NCBI GenBank assembly: GCA_964016885.1
Contig: OZ024747.1
Location: 78,244,001 to 78,308,000, forward strand
Origin: Eledone cirrhosa
Taxonomy: Eukaryota
Reading direction: 5' to 3'
DNA length: 64,000 bases
Every line of letters starts with the position of its first letter. The stretch's first letter is position 1. The notes under the pieces were generated by a model. It saw nothing but the letters and a program-made list of their open reading frames with translations. It made no database searches and was not told where the DNA came from. A program made the translations under genes and the position numbers. Shown in pieces: positions 15,330 through 44,237 of this stretch.

Positions 15330-15423
15330 CTATATATATATAGATACATATATAGATATACATATATAAATATATACATATATAGATATACATATATATA
15401 TATAAATATATACATATATAGAT

Positions 15424-15466
<43 letters not shown>

Positions 15467-15810
15467 TATACATATATAGATATACATATATATATATAAA
15501 TATATACATATATAGATACACATATATATATATATATATAAATATATACATATATAGATACACATATATATATATATATAAATATATACATATATAGATA
15601 CACATATATATATATATATAAATATATACATATATAGATACACATATATATATATATAGATACACATATATATATATATATATAAATATATACATATATA
15701 GATACACATATATATATATATATATAAATATATACATATATAGATACACATATATATATATATATATAAATATATACATATATAGATACACACATATATA
15801 TATATATATA
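15330..15810. repeat. Compound TA-derived minisatellite, continuing at 16583-16700
   Basis: Unit ATAAATATATACATATATAGATACAC(AT)n lies on both sides of the 15811-16582 insertion. Confidence 0.9.
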
Positions 15811-16036
15811 TAAACAATTAAGTTAAAAATGTACATCCACATATGTATACTGAAATACTAGTATGCATATGAATACACACACGTGTACATATGTAGATGT
15901 ACCGAGTTTTTCACTGGACACTTTACTGTGAGTGTCCAGCTATTCTGTATGTAAACACACAGACAAACCGGTTTTTAGAGTCATACTGGTTTTCGAGGAA
16001 ACACCTTTCCTCTATTCTCCAGAAAGCCAGACAAGG

Positions 16037-16081
16037 AATATTGGACTAGTTTCGATGTTGTTACATCTCATCAGCAATATT
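16037..16081 (-). ncRNA. Minimal type I hammerhead ribozyme (inverted copy)
   Basis: Exact reverse complement of 16243-16287. Confidence 0.9.
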
Positions 16082-16242
16082 TACCTATTTAATTTCGTTT
16101 CGTTATTTGTTTTTATCGTCTCCGTTGAACCGGTACGTACTCACGCTCTATGCAAATTAGTCTGCCCACTACTAATTTTCATAGAAAAAGCATATAACGA
16201 TATGTGCTTTTACGATTCTCTAGAAAGGCCGGAAGATAGGTA

Positions 16243-16287
16243 AATATTGCTGATGAGATGTAACAACATCGAAACTAGTCCAATATT
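16243..16287 (+). ncRNA. Minimal type I hammerhead ribozyme
   Basis: AATATTG-CTGATGA-GATG TAACAA CATC-GAAA-CTAG-TC-CAATATT: 7-bp stem I, 4-bp stem II, palindromic ACTAGT helix III, GUC cleavage site. Confidence 0.9.
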
Positions 16288-16884
16288 CCTTGTCTGGCTT
16301 TCTGGAGAATAGAGGAAAGGTGTTTCCTCGAAAACCAGTATGACTCTAAAAACCGGTTTGTCTGTGTGTTTACATACAGAATAGCTGGACACTCACAGTA
16401 AAGTGTCCAGTGAAAAACTCGGTACATCTACATATGTACACGTGTGTGTATTCATATGCATACTAGTATTTCAGTATACATATGTGGATGTACATTTTTA
16501 ACTTAATTGTTTAAGCGTCAGTCATACAAAAGTGAGTTACAAACAAAACAAAATTTAATTTCGTTTCGTTATTTGTTTTTATATATATATAAATATATAC
16601 ATATATAGATACACATATATATATATATAAATATATACATATATAGATACACATATATATAAATATATAGATACACATATATATATATATATACATACAT
16701 AATATAAGATCAAAAGATGGTTAAAGGAGTTCCATGTATTTTATTATGCGCATTTCAAAAACAAACATCATCATGCAATAATATTTGTGTTTTCATCAGA
16801 TAAAACAGGAGAACATGATATGAAGGCTAAAAAACACTTGTGGATAGTGCAGTTTGAAATCAACATACATATATATATACATAT

Positions 16885-17220
16885 GGAGGCACATGGCTTA
16901 GTGGTTAGAGCATTGGCCTTGCAATCGAAAGGTTGTGAGTTCAATTCTCAGACCGGGTGATGTGTTGTTTCCTTGAGCAAGACACTTTATTTCACATTGC
17001 TCCAGTTTACTCAGCTGTAGAAATGAGATGATAGGGACTGGGGTCCATATCATTCCACTGCAAAGTGGTCGTGCAGGTGACACGGCAAAAGAGCACCCAG
17101 CACTCACTGTAAATGAGGTTGGTGTTAGGAAGGGCATCCAGATGTAGAAATCAAGCCAAATTCAGTTCCCGTCCCACCCTTGCAAGCAGGGAAAAAGCGG
17201 ACGTAAAATGAAATGATGAT
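16885..17220 (+). mobile_element. tRNA-derived SINE with (TGA)n-type tail
   Basis: A box TGGCTTAGTGG, B box GAGTTCAATTC, CCTTGAGCAAGACACTTT core; 3' block AGGAAGGGCATCC...GGACGTAAA..TGATGAT recurs at about 5090, 9540-9730, 14165, 44485, 47300 and 60480. Confidence 0.85.
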
Positions 17221-22761: not shown

Positions 22762-23220
22762 ATAAATTGAAACAAAATGAAAACGAAATTTCATTTCTCA
22801 CTCTTAGCATGGCACTTACTTAAATGTAAGTATGCATGTATACGTACATACATATATGTATACAGACATTTAAGTAAGTGCCATACTAAGAGTGAGAAAT
22901 GAAATTTCGTTTTCATTTTGTTTCAATTTATCGTTTTCGGTATGCCTGACCGATTTAACTCACTCAATATGCAAATTAGGCTGCTCAGCCGTTAATTTTC
23001 ATAAGGAAAGTATATACTTTCGAACGTTCAACTATCTGGCAGATGGGTAAACAGTGCTGATGATAGCTAACAAGCTTGAAACTAGTACATCGTTCCTGTG
23101 TCAGTGTTGAACAAAAAGGTGACGTGGTTGCCTTAACACCGTATGGCATAAATTCAGGCTGTTCAGTTTGTTTACAAACGAACAAAGCGACGTTATAATA
23201 AGCGCCGCTAAACTGATACG
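22762..23220 (+). mobile_element. Diverged relative of the 15811-16582 HHR element, with a 66-bp inverted arm
   Basis: 22762-22827 pairs with 22866-22931; shares TATGCAAATTAG..CTGC...TAATTTTCATA and the HHR with the 16.1-16.3 kb copy. Confidence 0.8.
23050..23094 (+). ncRNA. Minimal type I hammerhead ribozyme (slightly degenerate)
   Basis: AACAGTG-CTGATGA-TAGC TAACAA GCTT-GAAA-CTAG-TA-CATCGTT; one mismatch in stem I. Confidence 0.78.
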
Positions 23221-23302
23221 TGCATATATGTATGTGTACCTGTATGCATATGTATATATGTATGTATATATATATATATATATATATGCATGCTACTGCA
23301 CG

Positions 23303-23333
<31 letters not shown>

Positions 23334-23348
23334 GCATGCTACTGCACG

Positions 23349-23379
<31 letters not shown>

Positions 23380-23461
23380 GCATGCTACTGCACGTCTGTA
23401 TACATATATGTATGTACGTATACATGCATACTTACATATATATATACATATATATATATAC

Positions 23462-39763: not shown

Positions 39764-40414
39764 TTTTTTGATACATGATTTTATTTTGATACTCTGCTCC
39801 AGTATGTCAAGATGAGCATTGAGTGCCACCTTGACATATCAGTAGCAGCAGCCAGATGGAAGGTGACAAGGTGGTGGAATGGTATGGAAAATAGAGCTGA
39901 AAGTAGCAGCTAAATCTCCCTCAATAAACTCCCTAAACCTTCATTGTTCACATGACAGTCCTTATTCACATATGCTCTCCATAATGTGTGAAGGAGCGTG
40001 GTCCATTGTTTAGGTTACGGAACTGAACTCATTATTATAAGATCAGGGGTTCAATTCCTGGACCAGGTGGTATGTTTTTGAACAATGCAATTAATTACAT
40101 TGTTGCTAAATTTACAAAAGAAAAAAAAATGAAGTGGCCATGGCTGGAACCCCTTTGAATCAGAGGTTAATTGAATCAGGGTTAGTCTGGGGCTAAACAA
40201 CAACCAGGAAATTGAAACATGACAGAAAATACATATATTTACAAAAATATACAGAAGATCTCTAAATTATGATATATATATATATATATATGAATATAGA
40301 CATAGAATATTCGAAAATATTCTGTATGTTTATAATAAACATTTTGAAGACCTAATCGCTATAGAATAGAATACGTCACGTATTACAATTAGATTCTCGA
40401 TAAAAGCAAGGGAA

Positions 40415-40457
40415 GTAATCTACGCGTTTCATTCTTGTTAGAAATCATCAGGACTAC
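40415..40457 (-). ncRNA. Minimal type I hammerhead ribozyme, first of 5 minus-strand copies (others start at 40725, 41035, 41345, 41655)
   Basis: GTAGTC-CTGATGA-TTTC TAACAA GAAT-GAAA-CGCG-TA-GATTAC; palindromic ACGCGT helix III; GUA site; distal 16-bp helix ATTCTCGATAAAAGCA/TGCTTTTATCGAGAAT. Confidence 0.92.
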
Positions 40458-42382
40458 ATATCCAGTGCTTTTATCGAGAATGACACAGCTAGAGACTTAT
40501 AGAATACTTAGCTGTGTACAGGAACTGGTTTGAAAGAGCGGTTGCCGGTCCGGCAGAAATTAGAAATTGGAATAAATGCTCTGAAATAGCGATATATATG
40601 TGAATATAGACATAGAATATTCGAAAATATTCTGTATGTTTATAATAAACATTTTGAAGACCTAATCGCTATAGAATAGAATACGTCACGTATTACAATT
40701 AGATTCTCGATAAAAGCAAGGGAAGTAATCTACGCGTTTCATTCTTGTTAGAAATCATCAGGACTACATATCCAGTGCTTTTATCGAGAATGACACAGCT
40801 AGAGACTTATAGAATACTTAGCTGTGTACAGGAACTGGTTTGAAAGAGCGGTTGCCGGTCCGGCAGAAATTAGAAATTGGAATAAATGCTCTGAAATAGC
40901 GATATATATGTGAATATAGACATAGAATATTCGAAAATATTCTGTATGTTTATAATAAACATTTTGAAGACCTAATCGCTATAGAATAGAATACGTCACG
41001 TATTACAATTAGATTCTCGATAAAAGCAAGGGAAGTAATCTACGCGTTTCATTCTTGTTAGAAATCATCAGGACTACATATCCAGTGCTTTTATCGAGAA
41101 TGACACAGCTAGAGACTTATAGAATACTTAGCTGTGTACAGGAACTGGTTTGAAAGAGCGGTTGCCGGTCCGGCAGAAATTAGAAATTGGAATAAATGCT
41201 CTGAAATAGCGATATATATGTGAATATAGACATAGAATATTCGAAAATATTCTGTATGTTTATAATAAACATTTTGAAGACCTAATCGCTATAGAATAGA
41301 ATACGTCACGTATTACAATTAGATTCTCGATAAAAGCAAGGGAAGTAATCTACGCGTTTCATTCTTGTTAGAAATCATCAGGACTACATATCCAGTGCTT
41401 TTATCGAGAATGACACAGCTAGAGACTTATAGAATACTTAGCTGTGTACAGGAACTGGTTTGAAAGAGCGGTTGCCGGTCCGGCAGAAATTAGAAATTGG
41501 AATAAATGCTCTGAAATAGCGATATATATGTGAATATAGACATAGAATATTCGAAAATATTCTGTATGTTTATAATAAACATTTTGAAGACCTAATCGCT
41601 ATAGAATAGAATACGTCACGTATTACAATTAGATTCTCGATAAAAGCAAGGGAAGTAATCTACGCGTTTCATTCTTGTTAGAAATCATCAGGACTACATA
41701 TCCAGTGCTTTTATCGAGAATGACACAGCTAGAGACTTATAGAATACTTAGCTGTGTACAGGAACTGGTTTGAAAGAGCGGTTGCCGGTCCGGCAGAAAT
41801 TAGAAATTGGAATAAATGCTCTGAAATAGCGATATATATGTGAATATAGACATAGAATATTCGAATAGGTCTTCAAAATGTTTATTATAAACATACAGAA
41901 TATTTTCGAATATTCTATGTCTATATTCACATATATATCGCTATTTCAGAGCATTTATTCCAATTTCTAATTTCTGCCGGACCGGCAACCGCTCTTTCAA
42001 ACCAGTTCCTGTACACAGCTAAGTATTCTATAAGTCTCTAGCTGTGTCATTCTCGATAAAAGCACTGGATATGTAGCCCTGATGATTTCTAACAAGAATG
42101 AAACGCGTAGATTACTTCCCTTGCTTTTATCGAGAATCTAATTGTAATACGTGACGTATTCTATTCTATAGCGATTAGGTCTTCAAAATGTTTATTATAA
42201 ACATACAGAATATTTTCGAATATTCTATGTCTATATTCACATATATATCGCTATTTCAGAGCATTTATTCCAATTTCTAATTTCTGCCGGACCGGCAACC
42301 GCTCTTTCAAACCAGTTCCTGTACACAGCTAAGTATTCTATAAGTCTCTAGCTGTGTCATTCTCGATAAAAGCACTGGATAT

Positions 42383-42425
42383 GTAGTCCTGATGATTTCT
42401 AACAAGAATGAAACGCGTAGATTAC
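42383..42425 (+). ncRNA. Minimal type I hammerhead ribozyme, one of 6 plus-strand copies (starts 42073, 42383, 42693, 43003, 43313, 43623)
   Basis: Same motif as 40415-40457; the 42073 copy has a T>C change in stem I at 42077. Confidence 0.92.
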
Positions 42426-43822
42426 TTCCCTTGCTTTTATCGAGAATCTAATTGTAATACGTGACGTATTCTATTCTATAGCGATTAGGTCTTCAAAATG
42501 TTTATTATAAACATACAGAATATTTTCGAATATTCTATGTCTATATTCACATATATATCGCTATTTCAGAGCATTTATTCCAATTTCTAATTTCTGCCGG
42601 ACCGGCAACCGCTCTTTCAAACCAGTTCCTGTACACAGCTAAGTATTCTATAAGTCTCTAGCTGTGTCATTCTCGATAAAAGCACTGGATATGTAGTCCT
42701 GATGATTTCTAACAAGAATGAAACGCGTAGATTACTTCCCTTGCTTTTATCGAGAATCTAATTGTAATACGTGACGTATTCTATTCTATAGCGATTAGGT
42801 CTTCAAAATGTTTATTATAAACATACAGAATATTTTCGAATATTCTATGTCTATATTCACATATATATCGCTATTTCAGAGCATTTATTCCAATTTCTAA
42901 TTTCTGCCGGACCGGCAACCGCTCTTTCAAACCAGTTCCTGTACACAGCTAAGTATTCTATAAGTCTCTAGCTGTGTCATTCTCGATAAAAGCACTGGAT
43001 ATGTAGTCCTGATGATTTCTAACAAGAATGAAACGCGTAGATTACTTCCCTTGCTTTTATCGAGAATCTAATTGTAATACGTGACGTATTCTATTCTATA
43101 GCGATTAGGTCTTCAAAATGTTTATTATAAACATACAGAATATTTTCGAATATTCTATGTCTATATTCACATATATATCGCTATTTCAGAGCATTTATTC
43201 CAATTTCTAATTTCTGCCGGACCGGCAACCGCTCTTTCAAACCAGTTCCTGTACACAGCTAAGTATTCTATAAGTCTCTAGCTGTTTCATTCTCGATAAA
43301 AGCACTGGATATGTAGTCCTGATGATTTCTAACAAGAATGAAACGCGTAGATTACTTCCCTTGCTTTTATCGAGAATCTAATTGTAATACGTGACGTATT
43401 CTATTCTATAGCGATTAGGTCTTCAAAATGTTTATTATAAACATACAGAATATTTTCGAATATTCTATGTCTATATTCACATATATATCGCTATTTCAGA
43501 GCATTTATTCCAATTTCTAATTTCTGCCGGACCGGCAACCGCTCTTTCAAACCAGTTCCTGTACACAGCTAAGTATTCTATAAGTCTCTAGCTGTGTCAT
43601 TCTCGATAAAAGCACTGGATATGTAGTCCTGATGATTTCTAACAAGAATGAAACGCGTAGATTACTTCCCTTGCTTTTATCGAGAATCTAATTGTAATAC
43701 GTGACGTATTCTATTCTATAGCGATTAGGTCTTCAAAATGTTTATTATAAACATACAGAATATTTTCGAATATTCTATGTCTATATTCACATATATATCG
43801 CTATTTCAGAGCATTTATTCCA

Positions 43823-43853
<31 letters not shown>

Positions 43854-43854
43854 T

Positions 43855-44237
43855 TCAGGTTTGAGGTTCACCACTGGATAGAGCTGGTCAATTCCGTATG
43901 GTCAATCTCAATGTAATAATATGGAGAGTACTCAACGTAAAGCAGTTCAACCGTCTTTGTTTTTGTAGTTGGTGGTGCTATTACGGAGTTAAATATAATA
44001 ATGAAATGACTTGTGTAAATCCTTGAAAGGTTTATTATACTATGATCATTTATCTATTACATTCACTTATTATATCTATTACATTCACTTATTATATCTA
44101 TTACATTCACTTATTATATTTCGAATACCTGATGATATCACTGGATTCATACGGAACCCGGTCATTGAAATGATCATAGTATAATAAACCTTTCAAGGAT
44201 TTACACAAGTCCAGCCTCCTGTCATTTCATTATTATA
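43855..44237. mobile_element. Fold-back insertion in (TA)n with about 57-bp inverted arms (43993-44237), an internal 3x22-bp repeat, a decayed HHR-like core and a TTGAGTACTC tail on the minus strand
   Basis: TTGTGTAAATCCTTGAAAGGTTTATTATACTATGATCATTT is inverted at about 44168-44210; CTGATGA...CGGAACCCGGTC at about 44129-44163. Confidence 0.65.

What the first reader, a model, noticed from the sequence alone, without database searches (positions are those of the whole stretch)
15811..16582. Second HHR element: 466-bp terminally redundant monomer with a perfect 278-bp inverted arm
Seen: 16087-16582 begins and ends with the same 30 bp, i.e. slightly more than one turn of a 466-bp unit. It is preceded by an inverted copy of 16236-16513, so two HHRs point outward, the same geometry as the 40-44 kb array. 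The same compound TA minisatellite lies on both sides. Inference: one-plus turn copied from a circular or tandem template.
Basis: partly seen in the sequence, partly recalled or inferred. Interest (0 to 1): 0.72.

Follow-up and report, generated by a model that had tools for sequence, protein, structure and literature searches.

The report
Two-armed hammerhead retrozyme, Penelope-style insertion
This is one copy of an abundant, protein-free jumping repeat that carries a hammerhead (predicted self-cutting RNA) motif and sits in TA microsatellites as two back-to-back arms, nearly always one with and one without a short tail, a pattern that likely records how Penelope-type retrotransposon enzymes copy it.

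Summary
The coordinates are exact: a 30-bp direct repeat, a perfect 278-bp inverted arm and two outward-facing type I hammerhead cores. The element belongs to a young 466-bp repeat family with at least 2,351 insertion ends in (TA)n in this 3-Gb genome, found as monomers and as tandem arrays. The 30-bp redundancy is incidental: outer ends are fixed, the inner junction falls anywhere in the unit. The real regularity is the ends: of 76 head-to-head insertions, 71 have one arm ending at site A and the other 69-74 nt further on at site B; 1 is A/A, none B/B. An autonomous RT + GIY-YIG Penelope-like element in the same genome shows the same rule (7 of 7). Best reading: a non-autonomous Penelope-like element (non-LTR retrozyme), likely inserted by priming on both target strands from two fixed RNA sites. 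The hammerhead core is conserved and stems covary. Cleavage, RNA circles and the partner element are not shown, and this copy probably cannot make a circle. Inverted arms and a one-sided tail are in print for Penelope-like elements, and this scan noted the same two-site layout before in another genome.

The parts
15811..16088 (-). Left arm, 278 bp, untailed: ends at site A (equivalent to 16513) against the TA tract
   Evidence: exact inverted copy; A end at unit position r397
16087..16582 (+). Right arm, 496 bp (one 466-bp unit plus 30 bp), tailed: ends at site B against the TA tract
16087..16088 (.). Inversion junction with 2-bp overlap shared by both arms
   Evidence: 1-9 nt overlaps at 42 of 71 junctions in the family
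16243..16287 (+). Type I hammerhead: stem I 16243-16249/16281-16287, core CUGAUGA 16250-16256, stem II 16257-16261/16266-16270, GAAA 16271-16274, palindromic 6-nt helix III 16274-16279, predicted cleavage after 16280
   Evidence: cleavage itself not tested
16037..16081 (-). Mirror copy of the hammerhead in the left arm
16514..16582 (+). 69-nt tail between site A (16513; alternative 16508) and site B (16582), present on one arm only
16087..16116 (+). First copy of the 30-bp repeat (start of the right arm; incidental junction position)
16553..16582 (+). Second copy of the 30-bp repeat (last 30 nt of the tail)
15331..15812 (.). Compound TA minisatellite, left part of the target
16580..16707 (.). 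Compound TA minisatellite, right part of the target, same orientation

Best explanation
This is a two-armed insertion of a protein-free, hammerhead-bearing 466-bp tandem repeat family (a non-LTR retrozyme) that is likely mobilised in trans by a Penelope-like RT/GIY-YIG protein. Shown: fixed A and B ends in (TA)n, one of each per insertion, a free inner junction with short overlaps, arms that match each other, and the same end rule in an autonomous Penelope-like element of this genome. Inferred steps: (1) tandem arrays are transcribed and the hammerheads, pairing as dimers through the palindromic helix III, would cut out unit-length RNA that may circularise; (2) the Penelope-like protein, likely a dimer, nicks both strands of a TA tract; (3) one target end would prime cDNA at site B and the other at site A, 69-74 nt upstream, on the same template; (4) each cDNA runs a variable distance, up to many units, which needs strand displacement or a second identical RNA; (5) the two cDNA 3' ends would be joined by microhomology, giving a head-to-head insert with the tail on one side. 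This particular copy is likely a dead end.
For: Ends: 2,351 exact tailed ends abutting TATA; 795 forward-strand untailed ends. Census: every exact A- or B-end hit on C1:1-90.5 Mb (51 and 75) was followed up. With loci from other contigs, 100 sequences gave 76 simple head-to-head chains: 71 A/B, 1 A/A, 0 B/B, 4 with one end at neither site (P about 2e-20 if arms chose sites independently). Inner junctions are spread over the unit; 17 of 71 have neither arm nested in the other, which excludes simple fold-back copying for those. Arms of one insertion differ by 0-2.6% against a median 4-11% to other loci, and are closer than the nearest other locus in 21 of 27, tied in 3. Arrays of 20, 8 and 5 units show no substitutions across both arms. 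Autonomous element with a 777-aa RT + GIY-YIG ORF ends at two sites 36 nt apart in (TA)n; 7 of 7 two-ended copies among 10 loci are one of each. A second Penelope-like family ends at two sites 80 nt apart. RNA selection: core positions vary 0.1% against 3.4% overall in 77 units, the cleavage-site base is only C or U, stem II has an A-U/U-A swap; 7 of 157 predicted pairs have two Watson-Crick types against 0-2 in slid controls; fold z = -9.5. Literature: two RT start sites bounding the tail, both strands cut and extended, predicted dimer (PMC11167929).
Against: No autonomous partner was identified by sequence: the unit shows no similarity to the 3' repeats of the three Penelope-like families examined, and a pattern search for related hammerheads found one hit. 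One A/A compound insertion (L090) and one possible B/B chimera (L081) break the rule. In 3 of 27 loci the arms are further apart than the nearest other locus. Only 7 of 27 multi-unit insertions carry a private variant fixed on both arms, so a monomer circle is not singled out over a homogeneous linear multimer. Older arrays show higher-order repeats, so some multimer length arose after insertion. Rfam score is below gathering. In the anole element, start sites did not differ between strands and hammerhead cleavage was not needed for insertion in vitro; 8 of 9 Xenopus retrozyme dimers did not cleave. The covarying pairs are shared by subfamilies, so they are few independent events.
Confidence: 0.72

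Rival explanations
1. Same family identity, but the inversion arises by self-priming or fold-back (for example on an antisense template, as proposed for rotifer Penelope copies) and the one-sided tail by endonuclease resolution of the intermediate, not by two primings.
For: Proposed in PMC3846280 and PMC8557442 (passages). Some junctions are palindromic (3 of 71 with 18-29 nt overlaps; window 22766-22930). 54 of 71 insertions have one arm nested in the other, and arms are near-identical.
Against: 17 of 71 insertions are not nested, and either arm can be the longer (A longer in 27 of 71). Both ends meet TA at fixed template positions that match the two RT start sites shown in vitro for another Penelope-like element.
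Confidence: 0.15
2. The template is a linear multimeric transcript of a genomic array (or two identical RNAs), with no circular intermediate; the hammerhead only trims ends or is kept for another reason. This differs from the best reading only in steps 1 and 4.
For: Homogeneous arrays exist and could supply homogeneous linear templates; private fixed variants in only 7 of 27; hammerhead mutants still insert in vitro in the anole element.
Against: Strong conservation of the catalytic core and a compact, covarying unit-length fold; mussel, coral and axolotl retrozymes accumulate as circles (PMC7229834).
Confidence: 0.35
3. A DNA-level element: a MITE or fold-back DNA transposon whose inverted arms are terminal repeats, or a satellite amplified by recombination.
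For: Perfect inverted arms in a TA target resemble a MITE; higher-order repeats in old arrays show DNA-level amplification.
Against: Arm lengths range from 17 bp to 14 kb, ends are asymmetric, arms are tandem multimers, the junction is free, and RNA structure is under selection.
Confidence: 0.03

Closest known systems
Metazoan non-LTR retrozymes (Cervera and de la Pena 2020, PMC7229834; Li et al. 2026, bioRxiv 10.64898/2026.07.22.740005)
   Same: Non-coding tandem repeats of a few hundred bp, low GC, one type I hammerhead per unit with a short palindromic helix III, stable fold, monomers to long arrays, co-existing with Penelope-like elements.
   Different: Unit is 466 bp, slightly above the 150-450 bp quoted in PMC7229834. 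In the parts read, neither paper describes head-to-head arms, fixed A/B ends or (TA)n targeting ('inverted' occurs 0 times in PMC7229834). Circles and cleavage are shown there, not here; a matching pLTR was found for Xenopus families, not here.
Endonuclease-positive Penelope-like elements (Craig et al. 2021, PMC8557442; Arkhipova et al. 2013, PMC3846280)
   Same: Tandem and inverted 5'-truncated copies, tail often at one end only, microsatellite targets, hammerhead in the terminal repeat.
   Different: No ORF; tail is 69-74 nt rather than 30-40; the one-sided tail is here a near-strict rule with numbers, where the papers say 'often' or 'optionally'.
Poseidon element PAc of Anolis in vitro (Frangieh et al. 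2024, PMC11167929)
   Same: Two internal RT start sites that bound the tail; AT-rich target; both strands cut and extended; predicted dimer.
   Different: The paper found no difference in start site between strands and, in the main text read, does not couple one site to each strand of the same target.
LINE-1 twin priming (recalled, no call)
   Same: Second primer from the other target strand gives an inverted 5' arm joined by microhomology.
   Different: There the second priming site is variable and the arms do not overlap; here both sites are fixed and the arms usually cover the same sequence.

Membership tests
Type I hammerhead ribozyme | Conserved core CUGAnGA / GAAA / NUH with three helices, open at helix I | tested here: met
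   core near-invariant in 77 units; helix III is 2 bp with a palindromic loop
Type I hammerhead ribozyme | Reaches an Rfam gathering score | tested here: not met
   HH9 38.9 bits against 52; the model expects a longer helix III
Type I hammerhead ribozyme | Self-cleavage (as monomer or dimer) | not testable with these tools
   helix III has zero predicted probability in the monomer; dimer activity is inferred from PMC4209133
Non-LTR retrozyme | Tandem repeats with one type I hammerhead per unit | tested here: met
   arrays up to about 31 units in one arm on C1, further arrays on C5, C12, C20
Non-LTR retrozyme | No coding capacity, no LTR/PBS/PPT, GC below 50% | tested here: met
   no ORF of 200 aa or more in or continuous with the unit in the loci scanned; sequence; PBS/PPT judged by eye
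Non-LTR retrozyme | Highly self-paired unit-length RNA | tested here: met
   z = -9.5; covariation 7 pairs against 0-2
Non-LTR retrozyme | Expressed as circular RNA | not testable with these tools
   no RNA holder listed; only contigs of unrecorded kind were available
Non-autonomous Penelope-like element | Tandem/inverted insertion structure with a tail at one end | tested here: met
Non-autonomous Penelope-like element | Autonomous RT + GIY-YIG elements with the same integration signature in the genome | tested here: met
Non-autonomous Penelope-like element | Sequence similarity to the pLTR of a specific autonomous element | tested here: inconclusive
   none with the three families examined; the genome holds many more families that were not examined
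MITE / TIR DNA transposon | Fixed, symmetric terminal inverted repeats | tested here: not met
   asymmetric ends, arm lengths 17 bp to 14 kb

The most novel reading that the evidence does not exclude
A Penelope-like RT/endonuclease dimer integrates by double-ended priming: one subunit starts at site A and the other at site B of one circular retrozyme RNA, each on its own target strand, and both roll round the circle with strand displacement, so that every insertion has two 3'-type ends and one tail. The dimer can also carry two different RNAs, giving chimeric inserts with one retrozyme arm and one autonomous-element arm (candidates L046 and L062, both one tailed plus one untailed end).
Probability: 0.35. 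Interest if true: 0.68.

Novelty: new member of a known kind. Interest (0 to 1): 0.38.

Why it matters
As a family it adds one more retrozyme to a known class. Its use is as a large natural data set for an open question, how Penelope-like elements make inverted arms and a one-sided tail: the near-strict A/B pairing, non-nested arms and matching arms give sharp predictions for the existing in vitro system, and they tie a retrozyme to Penelope-like machinery by integration signature rather than by co-occurrence. The 278-bp perfect arms also make such copies likely sources of double-stranded RNA.

Tried and rejected
Expression: no RNA holder listed; contigs from four runs of unrecorded kind were laid; a 495-nt permuted contig in X4 is expected from a tandem DNA array as well as from a circle, so it was not used. 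Partner search: three Penelope-like families were pulled out and compared with the unit, with no similarity beyond retrozyme copies and weak low-complexity matches; a degenerate hammerhead pattern gave one hit, a variant that looks like this family. A conserved stable hairpin in the tail: folding of 16470-16600 is no better than shuffles (z = +0.39), so no structure is claimed for the tail. Circle versus linear multimer by private variants: inconclusive. Hotspot for the inner junction near the 30-bp repeat: not found. The B/B pair proved to be two separate insertions, and one of the 31 A/B pairs was two insertions 7 kb apart. Rfam miRNA hits are TA-repeat artefacts. Host species was not established by any search.

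Full report
Observation. All stated features are in the sequence. 16087-16116 and 16553-16582 are identical over exactly 30 bp; 15811-16088 is the exact reverse complement of 16236-16513, and the two arms share 2 bp at the junction. A type I hammerhead core runs from 16250 to 16280 on the plus strand with a mirror copy on the minus strand; Rfam HH9 scores 38.9 and 37.2 bits, significant but below the gathering score of 52. Helix III is a 6-nt palindrome, the form that PMC4209133 describes as needing a dimer (main text parts 1-2 of 4 read). The same compound TA minisatellite lies on both sides in the same orientation, so the element was inserted into it.

The family. The window lies in a 3.0-Gb assembly; no call established the species. 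A DNA search returned 104 matches from 40 scored candidates, including tandem arrays with a 465-470-bp period. Exact patterns give the scale: 2,601 copies of a 31-nt hammerhead core, 2,351 ends at one site followed by TATA and 795 forward-strand ends at a second site (the reverse count there is inflated by several gap lengths per site). I call these site B (16582) and site A (16513 or 16508); the 69-74 nt between them is the tail. No ORF of 200 aa or more is part of the unit in the loci scanned.

The 30-bp redundancy is incidental. In 71 two-armed insertions the inner end of the tailed arm is spread over the whole unit (3-10 per tenth), and 4 of 71 start within r432-442 like this copy. One turn plus 30 bp is simply where this cDNA stopped.

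The end rule. On C1:1-90.5 Mb the lists hold 75 B ends and 51 A ends; 33 outward-facing neighbours within 20 kb were 31 A/B, 1 A/A and 1 B/B. I fetched all of them and all unpaired ends. The B/B pair is two separate insertions and the A/A is a real compound insertion; 30 of the 31 A/B pairs are continuous and one is two insertions; most unpaired ends had a partner hidden by sequence variation or a very short arm. A pooled count over 100 sequences (these plus loci from other contigs; one duplicate and one locus with a 10-nt arm left out) found 76 simple head-to-head chains: 71 A/B, 1 A/A, 0 B/B and 4 with one end at neither site; the rest were single-armed, had arms too short for BLAST, were cut by the locus end or were complex. 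Independent choice of site would give this with P about 2e-20. Junctions show 1-9 nt overlap in 42 of 71, are blunt in 6, have extra bases in 20 and long palindromic overlaps in 3. Arms run from 17 bp to 14 kb, either may be longer, and in 17 of 71 neither is contained in the other, which rules out simple fold-back copying for those. The two arms of an insertion differ by 0-2.6% against a median of 4-11% to other loci; they are closer than the nearest other locus in 21 of 27, tied in 3 and further in 3. Three young arrays of 20, 8 and 5 units have no substitutions across both arms. One template, or one source, feeds both arms.

RNA-level selection. The unit folds at -151 kcal/mol, z = -9.5; as a circle the plus strand is the more stable (-146 against -131). 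In 77 distinct units, one per locus, core positions vary 0.1% against 3.4% overall, the cleavage-site base is C (29) or U (48), and a stem II pair switches between A-U (35) and U-A (42). Seven of 157 predicted pairs show two Watson-Crick types against 0-2 when partners are slid. These are subfamily-level changes, so few independent events. The tail region itself has no significant fold.

Link to Penelope-like elements. An autonomous element with a 777-aa ORF (RT by Pfam; RT plus GIY-YIG in close homologues; a CX4CxxC motif before the GIY-YIG, which PMC8557442 assigns to Neptune and Nematis) is young and abundant. It ends at two sites 36 nt apart in (TA)n (18 and 16 ends), and 7 of 7 copies with both outer ends visible among 10 loci have one of each; one of the seven I re-read by eye because its TA tract starts irregularly. 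A second family with a 784-aa open frame (no Pfam hit; Penelope-like by motif, judged by eye) ends at two sites 80 nt apart, 13 and 12 ends. Three other hammerhead elements in this window show the same one-tail layout. The unit has no sequence similarity to the 3' repeats of the three families examined, so the partner is not named. Five of 14 insertions examined with a non-TA inner flank have Penelope-like sequence in antisense at or near the junction, against 12.9% background; two keep the one-tail rule and one breaks it. Later deletions could give the same picture, so this is a lead only.

Mechanism. Shown: fixed ends, pairing, free junction, matching arms, shared signature with autonomous elements. 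Inferred: dimer cleavage and possible circularisation of array transcripts; nicking of both strands of a TA tract; priming at B from one strand and at A from the other; extension with strand displacement or on a second identical RNA; joining by microhomology. The in vitro basis is PMC11167929 (main text parts 1-2 of 4 read): two internal start sites bounding the tail, both strands cut and extended, a predicted dimer. The same paper found no strand difference in start site and no need for hammerhead cleavage. Circle versus linear multimer is undecided: only 7 of 27 multi-unit insertions have a private variant fixed on both arms, and older arrays carry higher-order repeats. This copy has one hammerhead per strand, and in a read-through RNA stems I and II have zero predicted probability because the arms pair with each other, so it is likely a dead end.

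What is known. Non-LTR retrozymes are described in PMC7229834 (passages and part 3 of 6) and argued to be non-autonomous Penelope-like elements in bioRxiv 10.64898/2026.07.22.740005 (parts 1-3 of 5). Inverted 5' copies, a tail often at one end only and (TA)n targeting are in PMC8557442 (passages) and PMC3846280 (passages), the latter proposing self-priming on an antisense template; PMC8969392 (passages) repeats the description. I found no paper that counts the pairing or ties one start site to each strand, in searches; the library lacks most subscription papers, Repbase was not available, and I did not read supplements, where such a family or remark could stand. A look-up by sequence found nothing; notes on rearranged hammerheads in this genome concern other elements.

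Verdict. Real, and a new member of a known kind. Interest 0.38: ordinary as a family, useful as a quantitative constraint on how Penelope-like elements integrate.

Noticed in passing
window 40282-43829: 310-bp hammerhead family, 5+6 units head-to-head in (TA)n; left end untailed, right end with a 40-nt tail. Further copies lie beside L031, L032 and L147.
   Followed up: partly
window 22766-23440: Third hammerhead family, 67% alike to the 466 unit over 160 nt, with a palindromic inversion junction and a tail of about 63 nt on the left arm; 47 matches from 40 scored candidates in the genome.
   Followed up: partly
window 43855-44235: Fourth element with a CUGAUGA core at 44129 and a long helix II, head-to-head in (TA)n; its two ends lie about 150 nt apart, a much longer tail than the others.
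   Followed up: partly
window 21433 and 25366, minus strand: Two more hammerhead-core-like matches from a loose pattern scan; the first recurs in L040, L063 and L082.
   Followed up: no
L046:5607-6615; L062 (reverse strand); L047, L044, L081: Candidate chimeric insertions: a Penelope-like arm in antisense joined to a retrozyme arm. Seen in 5 of 14 insertions examined with a non-TA inner flank, against 12.9% background (P about 0.03, post hoc). L046 and L062 keep the one-tail rule, L081 does not.
   Followed up: partly
L123:3198-6897 and L214: Very young autonomous Penelope-like family (97 of 140 listed matches at the top score, 100% identical over 276 aa); its 3' repeat and that of a relative carry a hammerhead-like core with U3-A8 in place of C3-G8, a variant described in PMC4209133 (core read by eye).
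   Followed up: partly
window 16885-17215: A SINE-like repeat with a tRNA-like head just right of the element; judged by eye, label recalled and untested.
   Followed up: no
G000:C1:55.97 and 55.99 Mb (L069, L070): The same retrozyme insertion with identical flanks twice, 17.7 kb apart: a segmental duplication; counted once.
   Followed up: yes
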